DNA of 14,848 nt from an uncultured Polyangiaceae bacterium (GTDB lineage: Bacteria; Myxococcota_A; Polyangia; Polyangiales; Polyangiaceae), in assembly GCA_964437785.1 (NCBI GenBank), contig CAYTJL010000046.1, positions 32,439 through 47,286 of the forward strand. The letters are read 5' to 3'. Each line of letters starts with the position of its first letter. The first letter of the stretch is position 1. Below the pieces are notes generated by a model. It worked only from the letters and a program-made list of their open reading frames with translations, did no database searches and was not told the origin of the DNA. A program made the position numbers and the translations under genes. Shown one piece after another: positions 1-14,848 of the stretch.

Positions 1-1259
1 CGATCGAGCCCAAGATCCTCCACCGCCTGGTGGAGGAGCTGCCCGCGCAACGGGTGATGAAGCTCTTCGAGGGTCTGCGCGTGAGCGCGCCCGAGAGCGG
101 CGTCCGCAAGGCGAACAACGCACGTACGCGCAAGCTCATCCTGCGGACCATCCTCGGCTCGCCGCGGCTCGAGCTGTGGTCGGTCAAGTACCGCGCCAAG
201 ATCGTCTCGGCCCTGCGCCACGCGTGGGGCGAGCGGAGGCTCGGTATCGTCCGGTCGATCCTGCAAAAGCCCGATGAGGCCCGCGACGCGAAGGAGCGCG
301 CGATCTTGCGCTCGCTCATCGACAAGCACGCTCCGCTCGACCGCGAGCGGGTGTACGAGTGCGTCGCGTTCATCCTCGGGATCCGCGAGCGCGTCACCCT
401 CCCTCTGCTCCTCGGCTTCCAGCTCGCCAAGGTCGATTTGACCGCCGGCCACAAGCTGCCTCCCGAGGTCTTGGAGGGTATCCGCGGCCGTTACCACAGC
501 GGCGTCGACAAGGCAGAGGTCCTCCGCCTCACCGCAGGATCGCTCACCAAGGCACAACGGCTCACCGTCCAGAAGAGGGCGGCCGAGGCGGGCGTCGTGG
601 TGGAGATGGACCCCTCGCACTACGACGCGGTCAAGCTCTATGTCTACGCCTTCGAGAACGGGCTCACCCCCGCCATCGAGGAGGCGCTCGACAAGCGGGC
701 TCGGCGCGCGGCGGCGGCCTTCCCGGCGCGTTTTTCGCGGATTGGCATCCTCGTCGACGCGTCTCGGTCCATGATGGGCGGCGGTGATCAAAAGCTCCGT
801 CCCATGGCCATCGCGCTCGCGCTCCGCGACATGCTCATGCACGTCGCAGACGCGCGCGTGGTCTACGCGGGTGGCGAGTCGGGCGCCGTCAACGGCAGCG
901 CGAGGCTCATGCGGCCGAGCGGGGACTCCTCGCTCTCCGAGGGGCTCTTGACGCTGCTCGGCGGCGACGCCGAGGCCATCTTCGTGATCAGCGATGGTTA
1001 CGAGAACCGCCCTCGCGGCCGCTTCGCGGAGACCCTCTCCGCGGCGCGGAGCATCGGTGTGAGCACGCCCGTCTACCACCTCTCTCCGGTCTTCGCGGCC
1101 GAGTCGGGCGGCGTGCGCGCGCTCGCCGAGGGCCTCGCGCCGACCCTCCCCGCGGTAAGCCCGGAGGCGCTCGGTATCTCGATGTTGCGCGGCCTCCTCG
1201 CGGCCGATCCCATTCGTGGGCTCGTGTCGCTGGTCCACGCCGCGCTCCCCCGTGTCTAA
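1..1259 (+). CDS. vWA-domain protein with MIDAS motif, 5' end probably outside the window
   Basis: The frame is open from nt 3 through the GTG at 30, so the gene likely starts upstream. The C-terminal half has GILVDASRSM (DxSxS MIDAS) and later IFVISDGYEN, typical of a von Willebrand A fold. The N-terminal part is helical and Arg/Leu-rich. A TROVE/Ro-like relationship is possible but cannot be shown by eye. Confidence 0.6.
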   Translation, partial: IEPKILHRLVEELPAQRVMKLFEGLRVSAPESGVRKANNARTRKLILRTILGSPRLELWSVKYRAKIVSALRHAWGERRLGIVRSILQKPDEARDAKERAILRSLIDKHAPLDRERVYECVAFILGIRERVTLPLLLGFQLAKVDLTAGHKLPPEVLEGIRGRYHSGVDKAEVLRLTAGSLTKAQRLTVQKRAAEAGVVVEMDPSHYDAVKLYVYAFENGLTPAIEEALDKRARRAAAAFPARFSRIGILVDASRSMMGGGDQKLRPMAIALALRDMLMHVADARVVYAGGESGAVNGSARLMRPSGDSSLSEGLLTLLGGDAEAIFVISDGYENRPRGRFAETLSAARSIGVSTPVYHLSPVFAAESGGVRALAEGLAPTLPAVSPEALGISMLRGLLAADPIRGLVSLVHAALPRV

Positions 1260-1273
1260 AGGAGGATCAAACC

Positions 1274-2227
1274 ATGTCTCTCACCGTTCATGAGATCCTT
1301 CGGGGCACCGGCGTTGGGCACGTGCAGAGCGCGGGCCTCATGCAGGTGATCCCGATCCTCGGCGAGGATGACGACACGTTTGCTCCCCCGGAGCTCACGG
1401 TCGGCACCTCGGGATATGGCACCGTCCTTCTGCGCAACGACAGTGACCGGCCCACCATCGTCCCCACGGCGGCGGGCTGGGTCGTGGCGCAGAGGGCACA
1501 GGACCACGCGATCGGCAGCGGCGTCTTCTTGAAGCCCAAGGAGAGCCGCGCCATCGACACCGCGATGTGCGTGCAGCAAGGCCAAGGCGGATACATCGCA
1601 GAGGACAAGCACGGGATGCTCATCCTGCCTGCCGCCCTCCGGCCCAAGGCGCTCAGCGTGCGGAACGAGAAGAGCTTCAACAAGCTCTGGGCCAGCATCA
1701 CCGAGCTCAACAAGAGCGTTGGTCTCACCGAGGCTGGACATCTCGAGTACTTCCTCAAGGGCTTCCAAAAGGAGCTCGATGAGTTCGTCGCCGAGTTCGA
1801 GATCGTGCCGAAGCAACGCGGCGCGATCATCCTCATCGGCGGCGAGATCGCGGGCGTCGAGATCGCCCCTTCGAGCGCCTATTGGGAGGTCGTGTGGACC
1901 CCGCTCATCCGGGTCTGCTACGGCTCTCTCGCGGCGAGCGCGCGCAAGCGCGGCCTCCAAAGGCCACAGACCCGCGCGCCGCTGCGGCTCGTCGATCGCT
2001 CGATTGACGGCATCCGCGACGCGCTCGTTCGCGCCGAAGAGGAGGAGGGTCGCTCGGTCATGCGCACGTTCGCTGCGCTGCACGGGCTGCCCTTCGAGGT
2101 CGCCGGGGCCCCCGACGACCGCATCAACGGCATCCTGCTCACCACGGTCGCGAACGCGCGGCTCAGCGGGCAAGTCGTGAGGACCGGCTTCAAGGTCCTC
2201 TACGCCTCGCTCTGCGCGGCCGCCTGA
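1274..2227 (+). CDS. conserved hypothetical protein, coupled to the vWA gene
   Basis: AGGAGG (1260-1265) lies 8 nt before ATG 1274 and directly after the TAA of the upstream gene. The codon bias is GC3-rich. Motifs GLMQVIPILGEDD, LLRNDSDRPTIVPTAAGWVV and AMCVQQGQGGY resemble, from memory only, an uncharacterised bacterial family labelled ARPP-1-like or DUF in databases. No catalytic motif was recognised. Confidence 0.6.
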   Translation: MSLTVHEILRGTGVGHVQSAGLMQVIPILGEDDDTFAPPELTVGTSGYGTVLLRNDSDRPTIVPTAAGWVVAQRAQDHAIGSGVFLKPKESRAIDTAMCVQQGQGGYIAEDKHGMLILPAALRPKALSVRNEKSFNKLWASITELNKSVGLTEAGHLEYFLKGFQKELDEFVAEFEIVPKQRGAIILIGGEIAGVEIAPSSAYWEVVWTPLIRVCYGSLAASARKRGLQRPQTRAPLRLVDRSIDGIRDALVRAEEEEGRSVMRTFAALHGLPFEVAGAPDDRINGILLTTVANARLSGQVVRTGFKVLYASLCAAA

Positions 2228-2287: not shown

Positions 2288-2361
2288 GTCCCTATCGGCT
2301 ACCTTGGATAGGCTTTCGGAACCTCACTCCGAAGAAGCGGGTTCGACTCCCGCTGGGGACG
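2288..2361 (+). tRNA. tRNA-Glu(CUC), C33 variant
   Basis: Acceptor GTCCCTA/TGGGGAC with one G.U pair. D-stem GGCT/GGCT (two G.U) with a 10-nt GG-containing loop. Anticodon stem TCGGA/TCCGA, loop ACCTCAC, anticodon 2323-2325. T-arm GCGGG-TTCGACT-CCCGC. Discriminator G followed by CC. The ends (GTCCC...GGGGACGCC) resemble bacterial tRNA-Glu. Confidence 0.8.
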
Positions 2362-2411
2362 CCGTTACGCCGAGCTGCCGAGAGACCTCTCGCTCGCGGC
2401 AGCTCTCCTTT

Positions 2412-2481
2412 CTCTCTGTCTCAGCGGACTGAGCACCGGGCTACGAACTCGGTTGTCGAGGTTCAACTCCTCGCAGAGAGG
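2412..2481 (+). tRNA. tRNA-Arg(ACG) with minimal D-arm
   Basis: Perfect acceptor CTCTCTG/CAGAGAG. D-arm CTCAG-CGGA-CTGAG (2420-2433), a tetraloop. Anticodon stem CCGGG/CTCGG, loop CTACGAA, anticodon 2443-2445. T-arm CGAGG-TTCAACT-CCTCG. Length 70 nt. Confidence 0.7.
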
Positions 2482-2487
2482 CTATGT

Positions 2488-2558
2488 ATCCCCGTCCCGG
2501 CGGCCCCGGGCGCGAGCCTCCGAAGCTCGTTGTTCGGGTTCGACTCCCGGCGGGGGTG
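2488..2558 (+). tRNA. tRNA-Arg(CCG) with minimal D-arm
   Basis: Acceptor ATCCCCG/CGGGGGT with one G.U. D-arm CCCGG-CGGCC-CCGGG (2496-2510). Anticodon stem CGAGC/GCTCG, loop CTCCGAA, anticodon 2520-2522. T-arm TCGGG-TTCGACT-CCCGG. Discriminator G followed by CC. Length 71 nt. Confidence 0.7.
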
Positions 2559-2568
2559 CCGTGATTTT

Positions 2569-2649
2569 GGGGCGAGCGCCGGCGCGCAGGTTGGTCTGTA
2601 AAACCGACGTCTTTGGACATGTTGGGTTCAACTCCCAGGCGCCCCACCA
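2569..2649 (+). tRNA. tRNA-Tyr(GUA), class II variable arm, minimal D-arm, CCA encoded
   Basis: Acceptor GGGGCG(A)/(G)CGCCCC. D-arm GCGC-CGGC-GCGC (2576-2587). Anticodon stem TTGGT/ACCGA, loop CTGTAAA, anticodon 2598-2600. Long variable arm GTC-TTTG-GAC (2609-2618). T-arm TTGGG-TTCAACT-CCCAG. A73 followed by CCA (2647-2649). Confidence 0.7.
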
Positions 2650-2655
2650 ACGTTA

Positions 2656-2724
2656 TGCAGGAAGGGAAGGTCCCGGCGGAGGCTCATACCCTCGGCTCTG
2701 CAAGTTCGATTCTTGCTCCTGCTA
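2656..2724 (+). tRNA. tRNA with CAU anticodon (Met or Ile2 type), minimal D-arm, U1.U72 mismatch
   Basis: Acceptor (T)GCAGGA/TCCTGC(T). D-arm GGGA-AGG-TCCC (2664-2674). Anticodon stem (G)GAGG/CCTC(G), loop CTCATAC, anticodon 2685-2687. T-arm GCAAG-TTCGATT-CTTGC. A73 followed by CC. Length 69 nt. Confidence 0.6.
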
Positions 2725-2725
2725 C

Positions 2726-2794
2726 CGCGATGACTCATGGTGAGGGGCGGCTCTCATAAGGCCGGCCGCGAGGGTTCGAATCCCTCCATCGCGA
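2726..2794 (+). tRNA. tRNA with CAU anticodon (Met or Ile2 type), minimal D-arm
   Basis: Perfect acceptor CGCGATG/CATCGCG. D-arm CTCA-TGG-TGAG (2734-2744). Anticodon stem CGGCT/GGCCG, loop CTCATAA, anticodon 2755-2757. T-arm GAGGG-TTCGAAT-CCCTC. A73 followed by CC. It starts 1 nt after the discriminator of the previous tRNA. Confidence 0.7.
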
Positions 2795-2798
2795 CCCT

Positions 2799-2875
2799 CT
2801 GGGTGTGGCTCAATTTGGTAGAGCGCCGGCGTCGGGAGCCGGAAGTTGGGGGTTCGAATCCCTCCATCCAGACCA
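2799..2875 (+). tRNA. tRNA-Pro(CGG), canonical cloverleaf, CCA encoded
   Basis: Acceptor CTGGGTG/CATCCAG. D-arm GCTC-AATTTGGTA-GAGC. Anticodon stem CCGGC/GCCGG, loop GTCGGGA (U33, G37), anticodon 2833-2835. T-arm GGGGG-TTCGAAT-CCCTC. C1-G72 and A73 as in bacterial tRNA-Pro. CCA at 2873-2875. Confidence 0.9.
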
Positions 2876-2876
2876 C

Positions 2877-2949
2877 GCGGGATGAGCGAGCTGGCGAACG
2901 CAGCGGTCCCACACACCGCCTCCGCAGGGTTCGATCCCCTGATCCCGCA
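2877..2949 (+). tRNA. tRNA-Val(CAC), C33 variant
   Basis: Perfect acceptor GCGGGAT/ATCCCGC. 3-bp D-stem GCG/CGC with a GG-containing loop. Anticodon stem GCGGT/ACCGC, loop CCCACAC, anticodon 2910-2912. T-arm CAGGG-TTCGATC-CCCTG. A73 followed by CC. Confidence 0.8.
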
Positions 2950-2962
2950 CCGAAGAACCAAC

Positions 2963-3038
2963 GGGGTATGATGGCCTGGTTGACCTGAGCTCTCCGATAA
3001 AGAGCTCGCGCCGCGTTCGATCCGCGGATACCCCACCA
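2963..3038 (+). tRNA. tRNA-Ile(GAU), C33 variant, CCA encoded
   Basis: Perfect acceptor GGGGTAT/ATACCCC. Weak D-stem with a TGGTTG loop. Anticodon stem GCTCT/AGAGC (extendable to 7 bp), loop CCGATAA, anticodon 2996-2998. T-arm CCGCG-TTCGATC-CGCGG. A73 followed by CCA (3036-3038). Confidence 0.8.
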
Positions 3039-3045
3039 TCACGAT

Positions 3046-3118
3046 GCGGGGCTCGCTCTCTGGCGAGAGCACCGGCGCGACGAGCCGGCCGAGGTGGGTT
3101 CGATCCCCACGCCCCGCA
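3046..3118 (+). tRNA. tRNA-Val(GAC), C33 variant
   Basis: Perfect acceptor GCGGGGC/GCCCCGC. D-arm GCTC-TCTGGCGA-GAGC. Anticodon stem CCGGC/GCCGG, loop GCGACGA, anticodon 3079-3081. T-arm GTGGG-TTCGATC-CCCAC. A73 followed by CC. Confidence 0.8.
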
Positions 3119-3123
3119 CCCAT

Positions 3124-3200
3124 GTCCATGTGGCGAAACTGGCAACCGCAACGGTCTCAGAAACCGTGATTTGAGGGTTCGAATCCCTCCGTGGACACCA
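3124..3200 (+). tRNA. tRNA-Leu(CAG) with short (5-nt) variable region, CCA encoded
   Basis: Acceptor GTCCATG/CGTGGAC with one G.U. Leu-type D-arm GCG-AAACTGGCAAC-CGC. Anticodon stem ACGGT/ACCGT, loop CTCAGAA, anticodon 3158-3160. Variable region GATTT only. T-arm GAGGG-TTCGAAT-CCCTC. A73 followed by CCA. Confidence 0.8.
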
Positions 3201-3223
3201 ACGCATCCATCATCGTCTCTCGC

Positions 3224-3298
3224 GTCCGTGTGGCGAAATTGGCAAACGCAGCGGCCTCAAACCCCGCCAATATGAGGGTTCGACTCCCTCCATGGACA
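3224..3298 (+). tRNA. tRNA-Leu(CAA) with short variable region
   Basis: Close paralog of the previous gene. Acceptor GTCCGTG/CATGGAC with one G.U. D-arm GCG-AAATTGGCAAA-CGC. Anticodon stem GCGG(C)/(C)CCGC with a C.C at 31:39, loop CTCAAAC, anticodon 3258-3260. 6-nt variable region. T-arm GAGGG-TTCGACT-CCCTC. A73 followed by CC. Confidence 0.75.
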
Positions 3299-3311
3299 CC
3301 CGCAATTTTAC

Positions 3312-3396
3312 GTCACCGTGGCGGAATTTGGCATACGCGACGGCCTGAGAAGCCGTGCCCGAAATGGGTATGTGGGTTCGACCCCCACCGGTGACA
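3312..3396 (+). tRNA. tRNA-Leu(GAG), canonical class II with long variable arm
   Basis: Perfect acceptor GTCACCG/CGGTGAC. D-arm GCG-GAATTTGGCATA-CGC. Anticodon stem ACGGC/GCCGT, loop CTGAGAA, anticodon 3347-3349. 15-nt variable arm CCC-GAAAT-GGG. T-arm GTGGG-TTCGACC-CCCAC. A73 followed by CC. Length 85 nt. Confidence 0.88.
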
Positions 3397-3471
3397 CCGC
3401 GCGAAGCAGCGCCCTTTGGAGAAAAACAAGCCATGAAAAAGAAGAGGTAGAGGTCAATAAACCTCGAGGAG

Positions 3472-3999
3472 ATGGAGAGTATGAGCGCGCAGACATTGCT
3501 CCTGACACCGTGGATGATGCCCCACAAGGTCATCTCCTGGCAGACCGCCGTCACCATGACATTTTTGGGGAAGGTCGAGGTCATCGCCGAATACGACGAG
3601 GCCATCTGCTCCCCCAGCACCAGCATCCGCACGCCGTCCGTCGTCCGGCTCAAGAGGCCGCTCGGCGACATGAAGCGTGGAGTCAAGTTCTCCCGCGTCA
3701 ACGTCTTCGTGCGCGACGGGTTCCGGTGCCAATACTGCGGTGACAAAAAGCGTGTCTCCGAGCTCAACTACGACCACGTCGTGCCCCGCGTGCAAGGCGG
3801 AAGGACCATCTGGGAGAACATCGTGACCTCCTGCTACGGCTGCAACTCTCGCAAGAGGGGCCGCACCCCGGAGCAGGCAGGAATGATGCTCCTCCGCAAG
3901 CCGGTCAAGCCGAAGTGGCTCCCGATGACCCCCGTCCTCCCACGGCACGGCAACGTGCCGGACGCGTGGGCCTCCTACTGCGCGGGCATGCTCCAGTGA
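3472..3999 (+). CDS. HNH endonuclease (small stand-alone HNH/McrA-like family)
   Basis: CQYCG...LNYDHVVPRVQGG...WENIVTSCYGCNSRK is a classic CxxC-H-N-CxxC HNH zinc-finger nuclease motif. The alternative start ATG 3481 has better spacing to GAGGAG at 3466-3471. The gene sits inside the tRNA array on the same strand. Confidence 0.88.
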   Translation: MESMSAQTLLLTPWMMPHKVISWQTAVTMTFLGKVEVIAEYDEAICSPSTSIRTPSVVRLKRPLGDMKRGVKFSRVNVFVRDGFRCQYCGDKKRVSELNYDHVVPRVQGGRTIWENIVTSCYGCNSRKRGRTPEQAGMMLLRKPVKPKWLPMTPVLPRHGNVPDAWASYCAGMLQ

Positions 4000-4015
4000 C
4001 CCGCGGCTCAAAAGC

Positions 4016-4053
4016 ACCTCGCTCGCCCCTCCCCAACGAGGGGCGAGCGGGGT
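4016..4053 (+). terminator. strong GC hairpin downstream of the HNH gene (terminator or processing structure)
   Basis: CGCTCGCCCCTC (4020-4031) pairs perfectly with GAGGGGCGAGCG (4038-4049) around the loop CCCAAC. The stem is extendable to about 16 bp. A T5 run lies at 4068-4072, 18 nt further on and not adjacent. Confidence 0.5.
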
Positions 4054-4072
4054 CGCCTCTCAACATCTTTTT

Positions 4073-4160
4073 AGAAGGTGAACCGGCCGGGGCGCCGGGC
4101 CTGTCTGGAACACAGCGCGAACGGCGATGACCGTTTGAGGATCGAGACCTCCGCCTTCTG
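4073..4160 (+). tRNA. tRNA-Ser(GGA), 8/4 (Sec/allo-tRNA-like) architecture
   Basis: 8-bp acceptor AGAAGGTG/CGCCTTCT with one G.U. Linker AA. 5-bp D-stem CCGGC/GCCGG with a 6-nt loop. Anticodon stem CTGT/ACAG, loop CTGGAAC, anticodon 4107-4109. Variable arm AACGG-CGATGA-CCGTT. 4-bp T-stem GAGG/CCTC with loop ATCGAGA. G73 followed by CC. Confidence 0.75.
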
Positions 4161-4205
4161 CCCGTCCTTACGAATGGGACCCCATCGTGAATCAGCGTCG
4201 GAATT

Positions 4206-4292
4206 GGAAGCGTGAATCGGCCGGGGCGCCGAGCCCGCCTTGAAAGCGGTGCGCACCCTTCGGGGTGTGGGGATCGAGACCTCCACCTTCCA
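4206..4292 (+). tRNA. tRNA-Ser(UGA), 8/4-like architecture
   Basis: Acceptor GGAAG(C)GTG/CACCTTCC, 8 bp plus one bulged C. D-stem TCGGC/GCCGA. Anticodon stem CCGC/GCGG, loop CTTGAAA, anticodon 4241-4243. Variable arm CACCC-TTCG-GGGTG. T-stem GGGG/CCTC with loop ATCGAGA. A73 followed by CC. Confidence 0.72.
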
Positions 4293-4316
4293 CCCCTCGT
4301 TTTTTACTGAACCTTT

Positions 4317-4404
4317 GGAAGCGTGAATCGGCCGGGGAGCCGAGCCTGCCTCGAAAGCAGTGCGCACCCCTTCGGGGTGTGGGGATCGAGACCTCCACCT
4401 TCCG
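4317..4404 (+). tRNA. tRNA-Ser(CGA), 8/4-like architecture
   Basis: Near-duplicate of the 4206-4292 gene. Same acceptor with a bulged C. D-stem TCGGC/GCCGA. Anticodon stem CTGC/GCAG, loop CTCGAAA, anticodon 4352-4354. Variable arm with a TTCG-type loop. T-stem GGGG/CCTC with loop ATCGAGA. G73 followed by CC. Confidence 0.72.
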
Positions 4405-4409
4405 CCTCT

Positions 4410-4494
4410 GGAAGCTGAATCGGCGGCGGCGCCGAGCCCGGCTGCTAACCGGTGTGTGCCTCATCGGCATGGTGTTCGACTCACCCTGCTTCCG
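4410..4494 (+). tRNA. tRNA-Ser(GCU), 8/4 architecture with 6-bp D-stem and tetraloop
   Basis: Acceptor GGAAGCTG/CTGCTTCC, 8 positions with one T.T. D-arm TCGGCG-GCGG-CGCCGA. Anticodon stem CCGG/CCGG, loop CTGCTAA, anticodon 4444-4446. Variable arm TGCC-TCATC-GGCA. 4-bp T-stem GGTG/CACC with canonical loop TTCGACT. G73 followed by CC. Confidence 0.75.
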
Positions 4495-4499
4495 CCTCT

Positions 4500-4574
4500 G
4501 CGGGGCTCGTTCAACGGGCAGGACAGTAGGCTTTGACCCTATCAATCGCGGTTCGAATCCGCGGCCCCGTGCCA
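4500..4574 (+). tRNA. tRNA-Gln(UUG), canonical cloverleaf, CCA encoded
   Basis: Acceptor GCGGGGC/GCCCCGT with G1.U72. D-arm GTTC-AACGGGCA-GGAC. Anticodon stem GTAGG/CCTAT, loop CTTTGAC, anticodon 4533-4535. T-arm CGCGG-TTCGAAT-CCGCG. G73 followed by CCA. A weak 1:72 pair plus G73 fits bacterial tRNA-Gln. Confidence 0.85.
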
Positions 4575-10923: not shown

Positions 10924-12991
10924 CCTTCTCCACGGGCTTCATCGAGGGCGACTCACCATCGCGAAAATCCGTCACCCCAGGCGGGGGCTCGGGGCCGGCG
11001 CTCGATCGATCGAGATCCAGGATCTTAGCGGCTCCCACGTACGTCTTGGTCTCGTATCGCGTCATCTTACCGATTTTGCGGACGATGTCGGCCATTCGTT
11101 CGGCTTCTTGAAGGATGATCCCGGCCGCGTTGTAAAAGGGCGTGCCCTCACCCCCGCCCCGGCGGCGGATCATCTCGGCGTACCCGAGGATGCTGGTGAG
11201 CGGCTGGTTCAGCTCGTGCGCAGCCGCCCCGGCCAGCTCGGCGATCAAGGCTTGTCGCTCGCGGGTTCGGAGCTCCTCCTGCGCCTCGGCGAGCTTCGCC
11301 TCCATGCGCATCCGATCGCGCAAATCGGTGAAGATGCCCACGGTCGCGACCGGGCGGCCGCTCTCCAAAATCTGCGCCGCCGACAAGAGCACGGGGATCT
11401 TTTCGCCGCCCTTGCCGACGACGTCGGTGCGGTAGCCCTCCAGGCGCTTGCCCTCCTTGCGCCGGATGAGCCGCATGATCTCGGTCGCGACGCCGGGCGG
11501 GTAGAGATCGCGCGCGTTCATGATGCCCACCGCGCTCCTCGCGTCGTAGCCCGTGACGCGCTCGGCCGCGCGGTTGAAGAGCAACACCTGGCCGCGCATG
11601 TCCGCGGAGATGATCGCGTCGACCGAGCTCTCGATCACGCGCTCCAAGAACTCCTTGGTCTTCACGAGCTCGGCCGCGGTCTCGCGGTCCGCGGTCACGT
11701 CGCGAAAGCTCACGAGGATGGCGCCCGAGTCCTCGCGCAGCACGCGTCCGAAGCTCACGCTGAGCACGCGCCGCGCGCTCGGATCGCGCCCGTCGCGGAC
11801 CTTGATGTCGACGAGGTGAGGGAATTCTCCGCGCCGAAAACCCTCGCGGATCTCCTCCAGCCGGCCTCGATCGGCGGGGTCGACGAGGTCGCGGAGCGTG
11901 AGCTTGCCGAGCTGCTCCTCGGTGCGCCCGACGATCGCCCGCGCGCGCGGGTTCGAGAAGAGCACCTGCCCCTCGACGTCGACGACCGCGATGCCGTCCG
12001 CGGCCGCGTGAAAGAAGTCCGCGTACGGCTCGATCGCCTTGAGCCTGCGCTCGGCCTCGACGCGCGCGAAGCTCTGCTGCTGCGTCTGATCGCGCATCGT
12101 CTGGAGGATGCGCGCGTTGCGGAGCGCGATGGCCGTCGCGTTCGCGACCGTGCGCGCGAGCGACAGCTCGTGCTCGCGCAGCGCCATCGGCTGCCGCCCG
12201 CGCAGGAAGAGCACGCCCATCGGCCGCTCCTCGTAGAGGATCGGCAGGAGCGCGAGCGATCGAAACGCGTTCTTGGGCAGGCCCTCGCGCACGATGTCGA
12301 AGAGCGGGTGCGTCGCGGTGTCCTGGATGACGAGCGGCTGCCCCGTCACCACGACCTCACGGATCTCAGGGTATTTGTCGAGGTCGATGGGCAGGTCGCG
12401 CAGATCGCGATCGTCGCTCGCGGCGACGACGTAGCCCGTCGAGTCGCCGTCGCGCACGAGCACGATGCTGCACCGATCGACGCGCGCCACCTCGGCGATG
12501 CGGCGCACGACGGTGAACAAGATGTTGCGAAAATCGAGCGTGGACGAGAGCGCCTGCGTCAGCTCGAGCACCACGCGCGCGTCGCGCTCGCGCCGCCCGA
12601 GCGCCTCGACGTACTCGCGCATGCGGAGCTGGCCGCGGATGCGCGCGATGAGCTCGGTCGGGCGGAAGGGCTTGCGGATGAAATCGTCCGCGCCCATCTC
12701 GAACGCCTTCGCGACGTCCTCGTCCGAGTCGAGCGCGGTGAGGACGAGCACCGGCACGTCGGAGAGCCTCGGATCCGCGCGCATCGATCGGAGCACGGTG
12801 AAGCCGTCCGGCGGGGGCATCACGAGATCGAGCAGCACCAGGGCGGGCACCGCGCGCGAGAGCCACGCGAGCGCTTCGCTCCCGCCGCTCGCGATGACGG
12901 TCGTGATGCCCGCGCGGCAGAGCGCCTGCGTCAACACATGGCGGCTGACCGCGTCGTCGTCGACCACCAGGACGGGGGCCTCGTTGGGCAC
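10913..12991 (-). CDS. response-regulator receiver / GAF / PAS-PAS / DHp protein lacking an ATPase domain
   Basis: REC motifs: VLVVDDD, LVLLDLVMPPPDG, VLVLTA, IRKPF. GAF-like middle region. Two PAS-like segments (ADGIAVVDVEGQVLFSN, VDAIISADMRGQVLLFN). H-box AAAHELNQPLTSILGYAEMI. No N, G1 or G2 boxes are seen in the last 100 aa or so. GTG start at 12989-12991. Confidence 0.85.
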
Positions 12992-13061
12992 GAGGTCAGC
13001 TTATCCGGTGACGGGCGCCGCAGATAGATCGAGCGCCCGCGCTCGTGTACTCTCGGCGCGC

Positions 13062-13706
13062 GTGGAGAACGAGCTCGAACAGTCTATCGGCGTCTTCGGC
13101 GAAGAGATGCTGCTTTGGATGTGCGTGCTGCGGCAATCGCCCCGCAGGCCGCCCGCGGATCACGTCATGCGCCAGGCGAACCTCCTGCTCGACGAGCTGA
13201 AGGCATCGAAGCTCGCGCAGGAGCTGCCGGTGCAGTCGGTCGACGACGGCATGTTCGCGATCGCGGCGCTGCTCGACGAGTGGGCGATGGCCCTGCCCGA
13301 TCTGCGCCCGCACTGGGCGAACTACCCGCTGCAAGCGACGCGCTGGCTCACCAACAACGCGGGCGTCGAGGTCTTTCAGCGGCTCGAGCGCGTGCGCGGC
13401 GGCCCGAAGACGATCCTCGCCACGTACATGGTGATCTTGGGCATGGGGTTCCAAGGCAAGTTCGCGCTGCCGGGCGTCGACAAGTACCACTTGGTCCAAG
13501 CGCGCAAGGACCTCGGCCTCCAGCTCGGCCTCGATCCCGATCGCGATTGGAAGGCCGGCGTGCTGCGCGCGGTGCGCATCGACCCCGAGGCCGCGCCCAA
13601 GGAGCCCTTCCACAAAACGGTCTTGTTCGGCCGGATTTTGGCGATTTTCTGTGCGGTCTCGGCGGTGATCACCTTGGCCATCATCCTTTACTCGAACCTC
13701 GCATGA
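13062..13706 (+). CDS. DotU/TssL-family protein (type VI/IVB secretion membrane anchor-like)
   Basis: FAIAALLDEWAMAL...W, GVEVFQRLERVR, ILATYMVILGMGFQGKF and a single C-terminal TM helix (ILAIFCAVSAVITLAIILY) match the DotU/TssL pattern. The start is GTG 13062 or ATG 13107. The upstream part of track ORF 12465-13706 is antisense to the REC gene and not coding. Confidence 0.7.
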   Translation: MENELEQSIGVFGEEMLLWMCVLRQSPRRPPADHVMRQANLLLDELKASKLAQELPVQSVDDGMFAIAALLDEWAMALPDLRPHWANYPLQATRWLTNNAGVEVFQRLERVRGGPKTILATYMVILGMGFQGKFALPGVDKYHLVQARKDLGLQLGLDPDRDWKAGVLRAVRIDPEAAPKEPFHKTVLFGRILAIFCAVSAVITLAIILYSNLA

Positions 13707-14848
13707 GCGCCTTCAGCTACGAGCTCGCAGCGGTCCTCTCGGCGGTCACGCGCGTTCACCCTGGTCCCGAGGGCGCGTACGCGATCCCTTGGTACCTCGT
13801 CATCGGTCACCCCGGCTCGGGCAGGACGAGCGCGGTCCGCGCGATGAGCCTCACGTGGGACGGCAACGAGAGCCCCGTCGCGACGGGCGCGCCCGCGCCG
13901 CTCTGCACGTATTGGATGCCCAAAGAGGCGGTCTTCATCGAGCCGGAGCGCCAAGTGCTCGGGCAAGATCGACAAGCCGGGCTCCTCGGCGAGCTCTGCA
14001 CCGACCTCAAGACGCTGCGCCCGCGCGAGGCGCTCGACGGCATCCTCCTCGTGCTCAACGTCGCCGACTTCATCGACTTCACCGAGGGCACGCTCGACAC
14101 CTACTCGAACGGCCTGCGTAAATTCTTGGTCGAGGTCGGCCAGGCGCTCGGCGAGGACGTGCCCACGTACGTGGTGCTCACGCGCTACGACACGCTCTGG
14201 GGCTTCGCCGAGGTGTTCCAATGGAACCACGAGCGCAAGCGCGAGGAGCCGTGGGGCTTCACCCTGCCGCCCGACACGCCGAGCCAAGACTCGCTGAAGC
14301 GCATCGAGAAGGAGCTCGACGGCCTCAACGCGCGCTTCGAATCGTTCTGCATCGAGCGGCTCTCGTCGGAGGATTTGCCCGAGCACCGCATCCGCGCGTT
14401 CCAACATCTCGCCGAGGTGCGCGCGCTGATCCTCAAGCTCAAGCAGGTCTTCACCGTGCTCGGGATGGCCAACGCCTACGAGCGCGCGCCGTGGTTCCGC
14501 GCGCTCGCGGTGGGCAGCGCCCAACCGGGCACGGGCGACAAGATGCGCGCGGGCGTGCAGCGCTTCTTCAACATGGGCCTCACGCAAGGCCCGTCGCAGC
14601 TCGCGAACAGGCCCGGCGGCCTGCCTTTTCATGCGTTCACGAGCACGGTCCTGCTCGCCGAGAAGGACATCGTCCCGACCAAGAAGCGCTGGCGCGACGA
14701 CATGATCATCATCATCTGCTTCGTCGTCGGCGGCCTCTTGTGGCTCGGCGCGATCGTCACGGGGATCGTGTTCGCGTCGATGGGCCCGCAGGACAACAAA
14801 CCGGCGCCCATCAAGACCACGCCCGCCAAGACCGCGCCCAAGAAGTGA
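13703..14848 (+). CDS. IcmF/TssM N-terminal NTPase-like P-loop protein, short form with C-terminal TM helix
   Basis: ATGA start/stop overlap with the DotU-like gene. IPWYLVIGHPGSGRTS (Walker A), TYWMPKEAVFIEPE, LDGILLVLNVAD (Walker B-like) and PTYVVLTRYDTLWGFAEVF follow the TssM/IcmF NTPase pattern. TM helix MIIIICFVVGGLLWLGAIVTGIVF. The TGA stop falls exactly at the window end. Confidence 0.7.
   Translation: MSAFSYELAAVLSAVTRVHPGPEGAYAIPWYLVIGHPGSGRTSAVRAMSLTWDGNESPVATGAPAPLCTYWMPKEAVFIEPERQVLGQDRQAGLLGELCTDLKTLRPREALDGILLVLNVADFIDFTEGTLDTYSNGLRKFLVEVGQALGEDVPTYVVLTRYDTLWGFAEVFQWNHERKREEPWGFTLPPDTPSQDSLKRIEKELDGLNARFESFCIERLSSEDLPEHRIRAFQHLAEVRALILKLKQVFTVLGMANAYERAPWFRALAVGSAQPGTGDKMRAGVQRFFNMGLTQGPSQLANRPGGLPFHAFTSTVLLAEKDIVPTKKRWRDDMIIIICFVVGGLLWLGAIVTGIVFASMGPQDNKPAPIKTTPAKTAPKK

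What the first reader, a model, noticed from the sequence alone, without database searches (positions are those of the whole stretch)
2412..2794. Block of five consecutive tRNAs with a miniaturised D-arm (3-5 nt loop)
In Arg-ACG, Arg-CCG, Tyr-GUA and both CAU tRNAs the D-arm is a 4-5 bp hairpin. Its loop is only CGGA, CGGCC, CGGC, AGG or TGG, against the canonical 7-11 nt. Usually a single linker nucleotide replaces positions 8-9. This gives 69-71 nt molecules (78 nt for Tyr with its long variable arm). All five keep perfect or near-perfect acceptor, anticodon and T arms and a GG in the mini-loop. That argues for selection on a functional but atypical L-shape. Such D-arm reduction is familiar from metazoan mitochondria and is not expected in bacterial cytosolic tRNAs. 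It would remove D-loop identity or recognition elements (for example A20 for ArgRS) and contact sites for D-arm-binding nucleases or modification enzymes.
Basis: seen in the sequence. Interest (0 to 1): 0.8.

Follow-up and report, generated by a model that had tools for sequence, protein, structure and literature searches.

The report
Compact-D-arm tRNAs in mobile tRNA array
Five neighbouring tRNA genes really do have a miniature D-arm, and related gene arrays in myxobacteria and a phage keep this compact shape through compensatory mutations, so they are most likely working tRNAs of a horizontally spread spare tRNA set rather than decayed copies.

Summary
Arg-ACG, Arg-CCG, Tyr-GUA and two CAU tRNAs (2412-2794) each have one connector base, a 4-5 bp D stem and a 3-5 nt loop containing GG.

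They are not an isolated block. The window carries 18 same-strand tRNA genes (2288-4571), split by an HNH endonuclease gene. Ten of them have compact D arms (also Val-GAC and four 8/4-type Ser).

Homologous arrays lie next to Ro60/TROVE and HNH genes in Polyangiaceae (Sorangium, Chondromyces, Polyangium, Minicystis) and in a bona fide phage contig.

- In 28 homologous Arg tRNAs the mini D stem is 99% paired, all four scored pairs show double compensatory changes, and the loop GG is invariant.
- The CAU families behave alike. Tyr could not be tested.
- Compaction is isoacceptor-specific (Arg, Cys, Trp, CAU, Ser, Val), whereas Leu, Pro, Glu-CUC and Ala keep normal D arms.
- aaRS identity marks are retained across the arrays.

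The layout (1-nt connector, small D loop, 6-bp anticodon stem, short variable loop) resembles tRNAPyl and tRNASec more than mitochondrial tRNAs.

Best reading: functional compact tRNAs of a mobile, probably supernumerary, L-array. Expression, charging and the reason for compaction remain untested.

The parts
2412..2481 (+). tRNA-Arg(ACG). Compact core: 1-nt connector, 5-bp D stem with CGGA loop (2420-2433), possible 6-bp anticodon stem (A2435-U2453), 3-4 nt variable loop.
   Evidence: ARAGORN. Rfam 35.6 bits. MFE fold is the cloverleaf. Covariation in 28 homologues.
2488..2558 (+). tRNA-Arg(CCG), 5-bp D stem with CGGCC loop (2496-2510).
   Evidence: ARAGORN. No RF00005 hit. Cloverleaf -32.8 against MFE -39.6 kcal/mol. 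Homologues in alignment A2, including three copies at 70-81% identity in phage contig L120.
2569..2649 (+). tRNA-Tyr(GUA) with long variable arm, 4-bp D stem with CGGC loop (2576-2587), 6-bp anticodon stem, G1-C72, A73 and an encoded CCA.
   Evidence: Missed by ARAGORN. Weak tRNA-Sec hit, 32.8 bits. MFE fold is the cloverleaf. Only two distinct sequences are known, so covariation could not be tested.
2656..2724 (+). Initiator-like tRNA(CAU): 1x72 mismatch, 4-bp D stem with AGG loop (2664-2674), 6-bp anticodon stem with one G.G mismatch.
   Evidence: Missed by ARAGORN and Rfam. MFE fold. Five homologues all carry a 1x72 mismatch.
2726..2794 (+). tRNA(CAU), elongator Met or Ile2 type, C1-G72, 4-bp D stem with UGG loop (2734-2744).
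   Evidence: ARAGORN. Rfam 32.7 bits. Eleven homologues, with compensatory changes in 3 of 4 D-stem pairs.
2288..3396 (+). First part of the array, 13 tRNA genes: Glu-CUC, the five above, Pro-CGG, Val-CAC, Ile-GAU, Val-GAC (6-bp D stem with UGGC loop), Leu-CAG, Leu-CAA, Leu-GAG.
3472..3999 (+). HNH endonuclease gene embedded in the array.
   Evidence: Pfam HNH and HNH_5. More than 100 homologue clusters at 65-80% identity, array-linked in Polyangiaceae.
4072..4571 (+). Second part of the array: four Ser tRNAs (GGA, UGA, CGA, GCU) with an 8-bp acceptor stem, 4-bp T stem and 5-6 bp D stems, then Gln-UUG.
   Evidence: MFE folds. tRNA-Sec-like hit. 81% identity to unannotated DNA in phiCbK-like Caulobacter phages. 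This class was described in PMC5389517.
3..1259 (+). C-terminal 418 aa of a ~530-aa protein with a helical region, a vWA domain and a DxSxS motif. It looks like a divergent Ro60-like protein.
   Evidence: No Pfam hit. AlphaFold2 model with pLDDT 86. The top two Foldseek PDB hits are a TROVE domain and a phage Ro60, with E 3e-3 to 8e-3 and TM about 0.37, so the match is weak.
1274..2227 (+). ARPP-1 family protein, always paired with the 530-aa protein.
   Evidence: Pfam PF20208, E 1.8e-29. Synteny in L013, L014, L225 and L226.

Best explanation
These are genuine tRNA genes that are very probably competent for translation, built on a compact core.

Structure:
- One nucleotide replaces positions 8-9.
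- A G+C-rich 4-5 bp D stem closes a 3-5 nt loop. Its invariant GG can still dock on the normal T loop (G18-psi55, G19-C56).
- A sixth anticodon-stem pair and a short variable loop make up for the lost length. This is the solution known from tRNAPyl and, in part, tRNASec.

Genomic setting:
- They belong to a long same-strand tRNA array (L-array type) interleaved with an HNH endonuclease, Ro60/TROVE-family genes and an ARPP gene.
- Such arrays are inherited within Polyangiaceae and shared with phages. They most likely supply a second, supernumerary tRNA set.

Inferred, not shown:
- The compact core folds on its own, without the U8-A14 and R15-Y48 tertiary contacts and without D-loop modifications.
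- It also lacks surfaces used by tRNA-targeting enzymes. The array could therefore act as a robust back-up tRNA pool during tRNA damage or translational stress.
For: Anatomy:
- Sequence and folds.
- RNAalifold on a structure-blind MAFFT alignment of 28 Arg tRNAs from about 15 arrays predicts the same mini D stem and a 6-bp anticodon stem.

Covariation:
- Arg: D stem 99.1% paired, 4 of 4 pairs with double changes (CG/UA/GC, UA/CG/AU/GC and others). Overall covariation score 0.718 against 0.263 in shuffles (0 of 500 reach it) and 0.08-0.19 when partners are slid.
- The GG of the loop is invariant in both the Arg and CAU-b alignments.
- CAU-b: 3 of 4 D-stem pairs are compensatory.
- CAU-a: the innermost D pair flips A-U to U-A, and the sixth anticodon-stem pair is AU, CG or GC in 5 of 5 sequences.

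Family specificity:
- Compaction is specific to Arg, Cys, Trp, CAU, Ser and Val.
- Leu (3 bp with 10-12 nt loop), Pro (4 bp with 9 nt loop, the EF-P motif of PMC5728406), Glu-CUC and Ala stay canonical.

Identity marks kept in the arrays:
- Ala G3.U70 in 17 of 19.
- Cys U73 in 10 of 10.
- Pro C1-G72/A73 in 43 of 45.
- Leu A73 in 76 of 76.
- Trp G73 in 7 of 7.
- Window Tyr has G1-C72, A73 and a long arm.
- CAU-a keeps a 1x72 mismatch in all homologues.

Array context:
-.
- Minicystis sp. has at least 48 tRNAs in 12 kb, while Minicystis rosea has 88 tRNAs in total (PMC8436480).
- A real phage contig carries homologous compact Arg tRNAs.
- L-arrays with a linked HNH and co-regulated rtcB are induced by translational stress in Anabaena (PMC8421152).
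Against: - There are no expression, processing or aminoacylation data.
- Arg-CCG prefers a non-cloverleaf MFE fold by about 7 kcal/mol.
- Tyr has an A7.G66 mismatch and no informative homologues.
- CAU-a has a G.G mismatch in its anticodon stem and only two of the three initiator G-C pairs.
- The sixth anticodon-stem pair forms in only 71% of the Arg tRNAs.
- Arrays sit at a conserved Ro60-HNH locus in four genera. This looks vertical rather than recently mobile.
- The adaptive reason for compaction is pure inference.
Confidence: 0.62

Rival explanations
1. Compaction has no adaptive role. The tRNAs are chargeable, but their D arms shrank by neutral or slightly deleterious drift that redundancy with a housekeeping set (or a phage past) allowed. 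Only the minimum needed for an L-shape is maintained.
For: - Loop length and sequence vary freely between orthologues, from 3 to 6 nt in the Arg alignment.
- The initiator-like CAU tRNA is compact in one clade but normal in others (L030, L032).
- Sorangium's array Arg-ACG has a normal D arm.
- L-array tRNAs are described as supernumerary and mostly silent (PMC8421152).
Against: - The same isoacceptor families are compact across distant arrays and in a phage.
- The 1-nt connector, 5-bp stem and GG loop layout is held with 99% pairing.
- Random shrinkage would not be expected to spare Leu, Pro, Glu and Ala so consistently.
Confidence: 0.2
2. They are tRNA-like RNAs that do not act in translation. 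They could be decoys or sponges for tRNA-targeting toxins, ligands of the neighbouring Ro60-family proteins (Y-RNA-like), or regulators.
For: - Arrays are flanked by or interleaved with Ro60/TROVE, a Ro60-like vWA protein and ARPP.
- Bacterial Y RNAs mimic tRNA and are encoded next to Ro60 (PMC4201824).
- Some irregular polycistronic tRNAs are charged but not used in translation (PMC5389517).
- There are weak YrlA-model hits across tandem tRNAs.
Against: - The arrays carry close to one gene per anticodon, with intact 7-nt anticodon loops and isoacceptor-specific aaRS identity marks.
- tRNAPro keeps the EF-P-type D arm.
- One related array encodes a full EF-Tu.
- The YrlA hits score 30 bits against a threshold of 69, and they span two adjacent tRNAs. 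Chen et al. list this as a known artefact.
Confidence: 0.1
3. They are decaying pseudogenes in a relic array of foreign origin.
For: - Low or absent RF00005 scores, and ARAGORN misses two of them.
- Mismatches in Tyr and CAU-a.
- The Arg-CCG MFE fold is not a cloverleaf.
Against: - Compensatory covariation occurs in every stem, with 95-98% of cells paired across 5-28 homologues.
- The GG and the T loop are invariant.
- Identity elements are retained.
Confidence: 0.04
4. They are this lineage's only (housekeeping) Arg, Met and Tyr tRNAs, so Polyangiaceae translation as a whole runs on compact tRNAs.
For: - The Ro60-array-HNH locus is conserved in Sorangium, Chondromyces, Polyangium and Minicystis.
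- The arrays carry nearly every anticodon.
Against: - Minicystis rosea has 88 tRNA genes (PMC8436480), while a Minicystis array holds about 48. This leaves about a full extra set elsewhere.
- Homologous arrays occur in a phage.
- Sorangium's array Arg-ACG is canonical.
- L-arrays are generally supernumerary (PMC8421152).
Confidence: 0.08

Closest known systems
tRNAPyl (archaeal and bacterial pyrrolysine tRNA)
   Same: - One nucleotide between the acceptor and D stems.
- Small D loop.
- 6-bp anticodon stem and a 3-nt variable loop.
- 7/5 acceptor/T branch.
- Works with EF-Tu and the ribosome despite its compact core (PMC6337575, and established knowledge).
   Different: - tRNAPyl lacks G18G19 and the T-psi-C consensus, has a CUA anticodon and has a dedicated synthetase.
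- Here GG and UUCRA are conserved, the anticodons are ordinary sense anticodons, and identity marks fit the standard aaRSs.
tRNASec, allo-tRNAs and (8/4) tRNASer/tRNAHis (Mukai et al. 2017, PMC5389517)
   Same: - Long D stem closed by a tetraloop, and a longer anticodon stem.
- Found in bacteria and their phages, and in polycistrons of irregular tRNAs.
- The window's own four Ser tRNAs belong to this class.
   Different: - The five tRNAs of the finding have a normal 7/5 branch.
- Four of them have no long variable arm, and their D stems are 4-5 bp.
- They decode Arg, Met and Tyr, not Ser, Sec or His.
L-arrays (Santamaria-Gomez et al. 2021, PMC8421152; Tran et al. 2016, PMC4758250)
   Same: - A long same-strand tRNA array.
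- A linked HNH endonuclease.
- A link to RNA-repair-type genes (rtcB in Anabaena, Ro60 family here).
- Presence in phages.
   Different: - No description of compact D arms was found in those papers.
- Myxobacterial arrays and the Ro60 linkage are not mentioned there.
- Here the locus looks stably inherited across four genera.
Metazoan mitochondrial tRNAs with reduced D arms
   Same: Shortened D loop and loss of canonical core tertiary pairs.
   Different: - Mitochondrial tRNAs lose the G18G19 and T-loop conservation and are A+U-rich and flexible.
- These tRNAs are G+C-rich, keep the elbow nucleotides and lengthen the D stem.
Phage tRNAs that escape tRNA-targeting defences (van den Berg et al. 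2023, PMC10264068)
   Same: - Extra tRNA sets carried by mobile elements.
- Sequence deviations at sites that nucleases recognise.
- C33 and other anticodon-loop oddities occur in this array too.
   Different: - The escape mutations described there lie in the anticodon loop.
- No role for the D arm has been shown, and none was tested here.

Membership tests
Canonical bacterial tRNA (Rfam RF00005) | 7-bp acceptor stem, 5-bp T stem, UUCRANY T loop, 7-nt anticodon loop with U33 and a purine at 37 | tested here: met
   All five, read from the sequence and from folds. Exceptions: 1x72 mismatch in CAU-a and A7.G66 in Tyr.
Canonical bacterial tRNA (Rfam RF00005) | Two-nucleotide 8-9 connector and a 7-11 nt D loop carrying A14, R15 and A21 | tested here: not met
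   One connector base and 3-5 nt loops (CGGA, CGGCC, CGGC, AGG, UGG).
Canonical bacterial tRNA (Rfam RF00005) | Reaches the curated gathering score (29 bits) | tested here: inconclusive
   Arg-ACG scores 35.6 and CAU-b 32.7, so both pass. Arg-CCG, Tyr and CAU-a get no RF00005 hit.
L-array (long horizontally spread tRNA array) | Many tRNA genes on one strand at high density | tested here: met
   18 genes in 2.3 kb of the window. At least 10 more lie upstream in the near-identical L013. The Minicystis array has at least 48.
L-array (long horizontally spread tRNA array) | Linked HNH homing-type endonuclease | tested here: met
   HNH at 3472-3999, array-linked in the homologues.
L-array (long horizontally spread tRNA array) | Supernumerary to a housekeeping tRNA set | not testable with these tools
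   Indirect only: 88 tRNAs in M. rosea (PMC8436480) against about 48 in a Minicystis array.
L-array (long horizontally spread tRNA array) | Patchy distribution or horizontal transfer | tested here: inconclusive
   Homologous compact Arg tRNAs occur in a phage contig. Yet the locus is conserved in four Polyangiaceae genera.
tRNAPyl-type compact core | One connector base, small D loop, 6-bp anticodon stem, 3-nt variable loop | tested here: met
   - Arg-ACG and Arg-CCG fit fully.
- The sixth pair forms in 71% of 28 Arg tRNAs and is predicted by RNAalifold.
- The sixth pair covaries in 5 of 5 CAU-a sequences.
- CAU-b has G.G at that position.
- Tyr has the 6-bp stem but a long variable arm.
tRNAPyl-type compact core | Absence of G18G19 and T-psi-C, CUA anticodon, PylRS partner | tested here: not met
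   GG is invariant, the T loops are UUCRA, and the anticodons are sense anticodons. These tRNAs are therefore not members, only similar in architecture.
tRNASec / allo-tRNA (8/4, 9/3, 8/5) | Acceptor stem of 8-9 bp with a shortened T stem | tested here: not met
   The five are 7/5. The four Ser tRNAs at 4072-4493 are 8/4-like.
Bacterial initiator tRNA (for CAU-a) | Mismatch at 1x72 | tested here: met
   U.U in the window; C.A, C.U, C.C and C.C in the homologues.
Bacterial initiator tRNA (for CAU-a) | Three consecutive G-C pairs closing the anticodon stem | tested here: not met
   There are two G-C pairs followed by A-U (GAGG/CCUC) in all five.

The most novel reading that the evidence does not exclude
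Polyangiaceae and some phages maintain a complete alternative tRNA set. In it, particular isoacceptor families (Arg, initiator and other CAU, Cys, Trp, Val, Tyr, Ser) have been rebuilt on a self-folding tRNAPyl/tRNASec-like compact core. That core is invisible to D-arm- or core-dependent tRNA nucleases and independent of core modifications. The set is genetically coupled to Ro60-family RNA-surveillance proteins (and in one case to its own EF-Tu), so translation can continue when the canonical tRNA pool is attacked.
Probability: 0.2. Interest if true: 0.85.

Novelty: new variant of a known kind. Interest (0 to 1): 0.62.

Why it matters
- It would add a conserved class of ordinary-anticodon, 7/5 bacterial and phage tRNAs with a compact core to the short list of non-canonical cytosolic tRNAs (Sec, Pyl, allo).
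- Standard finders miss or under-score them (3 of 5 here). tRNA censuses of such genomes and phages are therefore incomplete.
- The isoacceptor-specific pattern is a natural experiment on which synthetases and factors need the D loop. Compaction appears in Arg, Cys, Trp, CAU and Val, and never in Leu, Pro, Glu-CUC or Ala.
- The compact scaffolds could serve as orthogonal tRNA chassis.
- The link between a full spare tRNA set and Ro60-family genes suggests a testable connection between tRNA arrays and RNA damage surveillance.

Tried and rejected
- BLAST of the array against phage and plasmid collections gave only short tRNA- or HNH-sized hits.
- The HNH protein found no relative in IMG/VR. In GTDB genomes it found only 8 loci, and only one of them carries an array.
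- A D-arm DNA pattern scan of IMG/VR gave 120 hits. Of these, 118 were chance matches in G+C-rich DNA and only L120 and L203 were arrays.
- An exact 41-mer of Arg-ACG is absent from IMG/VR.
- Tyr orthologues: other arrays carry structurally different Tyr genes (8/4 type, or 5-6 bp D stems with 5-8 nt loops) at other positions. No covariation test was therefore possible.
- A normal D arm was considered and rejected because the segment is too short (15-18 nt). The RF00005 alignments need deletions and non-pairs there.
- The Y-RNA (YrlA) reading was rejected. The hits score 30 bits against a threshold of 69 and straddle two adjacent tRNAs.
- The promoter and terminator scan was uninformative.
- Literature searches found no earlier description of myxobacterial Ro60-linked arrays or of 7/5 tRNAs with mini D arms. 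The library is incomplete, so this is not proof of absence.
- Redundancy with housekeeping tRNAs could not be tested, because no whole genome was accessible.
Full report
**1. The observation**

The region 2412-2794 holds five tightly packed tRNA genes on the + strand. In each one, a single base follows the 7-bp acceptor stem, or 6 bp plus a 1x72 mismatch in CAU-a. A short hairpin follows:

| tRNA | D arm |
|---|---|
| Arg-ACG | CUCAG-CGGA-CUGAG |
| Arg-CCG | CCCGG-CGGCC-CCGGG |
| Tyr-GUA | GCGC-CGGC-GCGC |
| CAU-a | GGGA-AGG-UCCC |
| CAU-b | CUCA-UGG-UGAG |

- The T arms (5 bp, UUCRANY) and the anticodon loops (7 nt, U33, A37) are normal.
- MFE folding gives the mini-D cloverleaf for four of the five. 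For Arg-CCG the cloverleaf (-32.8 kcal/mol) loses to an alternative fold (-39.6).
- ARAGORN finds three of the five.
- Rfam's tRNA model passes only Arg-ACG (35.6 bits) and CAU-b (32.7), against 52-62 bits for the canonical neighbours. Both alignments have deletions and non-pairs in the D arm.
- Tyr matches only the tRNA-Sec model, weakly. Arg-CCG and CAU-a get no tRNA hit.
- The segment between the acceptor and anticodon stems is 15-18 nt. Canonical tRNAs of the same arrays have 18-22 nt, so a normal D arm cannot be drawn.

**2. It is part of a larger array**

- T-loop motifs occur 15 times in the window against 2.1 expected.
- Together with folding, this gives 18 same-strand tRNA genes between 2288 and 4571: Glu-CUC, the five, Pro-CGG, Val-CAC, Ile-GAU, Val-GAC, Leu-CAG, Leu-CAA, Leu-GAG, then an HNH endonuclease gene (3472-3999), then Ser-GGA, Ser-UGA, Ser-CGA, Ser-GCU and Gln-UUG.
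- Ten of the 18 have compact D arms. Besides the five, these are Val-GAC (6 bp with UGGC) and the four Ser tRNAs, which have 8-bp acceptor and 4-bp T stems.
- Upstream lie a roughly 530-aa protein and an ARPP-1 protein.
- Downstream are ordinary chromosomal genes: a Ser/Thr kinase, an enoyl-CoA hydratase, a histidine kinase and T6SS DotU/IcmF.

**3. Homologous arrays**

- The HNH protein has more than 100 homologue clusters at 65-80% identity, named in Sorangium, Chondromyces and Polyangium.
- In those genomes and in MAGs the order is Ro60/TROVE gene, tRNA array, HNH.
- A Minicystis sp. MAG carries at least 48 tRNA genes in 12 kb. Its order is tRNAs, TROVE, tRNAs, 534-aa protein plus ARPP-1, tRNAs, HNH, tRNAs. 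The stretch Glu-CUC, Arg-ACG ... Arg-CCG, CAU, CAU, Pro-CGG, Val ... runs in the same order as in the window.
- A metagenome scan with an HNH alignment added many more arrays.
- The roughly 530-aa protein models confidently (pLDDT 86). Its two best PDB fold matches are a TROVE domain and a phage Ro60. The match is weak (E about 3e-3 to 8e-3, TM about 0.37), so it is probably a divergent Ro60-like vWA protein.

**4. Selection on the mini D arm**

- Arg family. A structure-blind MAFFT alignment of 28 distinct Arg tRNAs (anticodons ACG, CCG, UCG, UCU, GCG) from about 15 arrays shows the D stem switching between CUCAG/CUGAG, CCUGG/CCAGG, CUCGG/CCGAG, CUAGC/GCUAG, GCCGG/CCGGC and CCGUG/CACGG.
  - The D stem is 99.1% paired, and all four scored pairs have double compensatory changes.
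  - The whole-structure covariation score is 0.718. Shuffles give 0.263 (0 of 500 reach the observed value). Sliding the partners gives 0.08-0.19.
  - RNAalifold independently predicts the same D stem and a 6-bp anticodon stem.
  - The loop GG is invariant.
- CAU-b family (11 sequences). Three of four D-stem pairs are compensatory, and GG is invariant.
- CAU-a family (5 sequences). The innermost D pair flips A-U to U-A. The sixth anticodon-stem pair is AU, CG or GC. The 1x72 position is always mismatched, which is an initiator hallmark.
- Tyr. Only two distinct sequences exist. Other arrays carry different Tyr designs, so its D arm is untested.

**5. Pattern across arrays**

- Among 478 unique ARAGORN-detected tRNAs from 32 array loci, 143 have a stem of at least 4 bp and a loop of at most 6 nt. 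Of these, 139 keep GG in the loop.
- Compaction is family-specific. It affects all Arg anticodons, Cys, Trp, about half of the CAU tRNAs, Ser, Val and Ile-UAU, plus some Thr, His and Gly-UCC.
- Truly shortened D segments (17 nt or less) are concentrated in CAU (17 of 27), Cys (8 of 10), Trp (5 of 7) and Arg.
- Leu (3 bp with 10-12 nt), Pro (4 bp with 9 nt, the D-arm motif read by EF-P, PMC5728406), Glu-CUC, Ala, Phe and Gln stay canonical.
- Synthetase identity marks are kept:
  - Ala G3.U70 in 17 of 19.
  - Cys U73 in 10 of 10.
  - Pro C1-G72/A73 in 43 of 45.
  - Leu A73 in 76 of 76.
  - Trp G73 in 7 of 7.
- These results argue against pseudogenes and for selection to be charged and used.

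**6. Phage link**

- A 104-kb IMG/VR contig with baseplate genes carries 30 tRNAs. Many have compact D arms, including three Arg genes 70-81% identical to the window's Arg-CCG.
- Another viral contig has an array that encodes a full EF-Tu fused to an endonuclease VII domain.
- Caulobacter phage CcrBL10 also has His, Ala and Thr tRNAs with 3-6 nt D loops.

**7. How it probably works**

- Shown: a conserved hairpin with GG, a single connector base, a frequent sixth anticodon-stem pair and a short variable loop.
- Inferred:
  - The GG still makes the elbow with the T loop.
  - The U8-A14 and 15-48 contacts and the core triples are given up.
  - The longer D and anticodon stems restore the geometry. 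tRNAPyl and tRNASec do the same, and both function on the ribosome (PMC7609411, PMC6337575).
- Context:
  - The array fits the L-array concept: long, HNH-linked, supernumerary, connected to RNA-repair genes and induced by translational stress in Anabaena (PMC8421152).
  - Minicystis rosea has 88 tRNA genes (PMC8436480). This leaves room for a full housekeeping set beside an array of about 48.
- The idea that compaction gives robust, modification-independent folding or escape from tRNA-targeting enzymes (compare PMC10264068) is a hypothesis only.

**8. Comparison and novelty**

- (8/4) tRNASer and tRNAHis, and allo-tRNAs with Sec-like D arms, are known from bacteria and phages (PMC5389517). The window's Ser genes belong to that class.
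- I found no description of 7/5 tRNAs for Arg, Met, fMet, Tyr, Cys, Trp or Val with such a core. I also found none of Ro60-linked arrays in myxobacteria.
- I rate this a new variant of a known kind. It is of solid interest to tRNA specialists, but there is no functional proof yet.

Noticed in passing
window 4072-4493: Four Ser tRNAs (GGA, UGA, CGA, GCU) have an 8-bp acceptor stem, a 4-bp T stem (loop AUCGAGA in three of them), a 5-6 bp D stem and a long variable arm. Positions 4205-4406 are 81% identical to unannotated DNA in phiCbK-like Caulobacter phages. This matches the (8/4) tRNASer class of Mukai et al. 2017. ARAGORN misses all four.
   Followed up: partly
window 2288-3119 (Glu-CUC, Val-CAC, Ile-GAU, Val-GAC): Four tRNAs have C33 instead of the near-universal U33. 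Across related arrays C33 occurs in 48 of 478 tRNAs, concentrated in Val-GAC (9 of 16) and Pro-GGG (6 of 17). It also occurs in Ile-GAU and Val-CAC of Caulobacter phage CcrBL10.
   Followed up: partly
window 3-2227; L225 5493-12571: A roughly 530-aa protein (helical region plus vWA domain with a DxSxS motif) is always paired with an ARPP-1 protein and sits inside the array. Its best fold matches are TROVE/Ro60, though weak. Minicystis has both this pair and a true TROVE gene in one array. The pair also occurs on a phage-like 94-kb contig (L226) without tRNAs.
   Followed up: partly
L009, L011, L017, L018, L019, L225: The order Ro60/TROVE(+vWA) gene, tRNA array, HNH gene is conserved in Sorangium, Chondromyces, Polyangium and Minicystis. 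I found no description of this linkage between Ro60 and a near-complete tRNA set in the literature searched.
   Followed up: partly
L203 737-2419: An ORF inside a viral-contig tRNA array encodes a complete bacterial-type EF-Tu (E 5.5e-136 to solved EF-Tu structures). It carries a roughly 170-aa N-terminal extension that contains an endonuclease VII domain.
   Followed up: partly
L120 (IMG/VR contig, 104 kb): A bona fide phage contig (baseplate hub gp41-like and Pam3 gp18-like genes) carries 30 tRNA genes and an endonuclease VII gene. About half of the tRNAs have compact D arms.
   Followed up: partly
L018 4425-4864 (Chondromyces apiculatus): Three Arg tRNAs share one scaffold (CUCCCUG...CAGGGAG) but carry different anticodons (UCG, GCG, UCU). 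This suggests duplication followed by anticodon switching. The GCG copy appears to have A33.
   Followed up: no
window 2372-2405: A 9-bp inverted repeat (GAGCUGCCG / CGGCAGCUC) lies in the spacer between Glu-CUC and Arg-ACG. By contrast, CAU-a and CAU-b are separated by a single base (C2725). I saw this by eye and did not analyse it.
   Followed up: no
window 12465-14848: T6SS DotU-like and IcmF-related genes, and upstream of them a histidine kinase, a Ser/Thr kinase and an enoyl-CoA hydratase. This is an ordinary chromosomal context of a high-G+C myxobacterium. The closest named relative of the 530-aa protein is from Minicystis sp., at 64% identity.
   Followed up: no
L225 4100-4180, 9673-9758, 12881-12966: Further tRNA-like genes that ARAGORN missed in the Minicystis array. 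They include a second Tyr-GUA with a 6-bp D stem and CGGU loop, an Arg-GCG, and an odd element with a CUU anticodon loop, a long extra arm and a very short acceptor stem.
   Followed up: no
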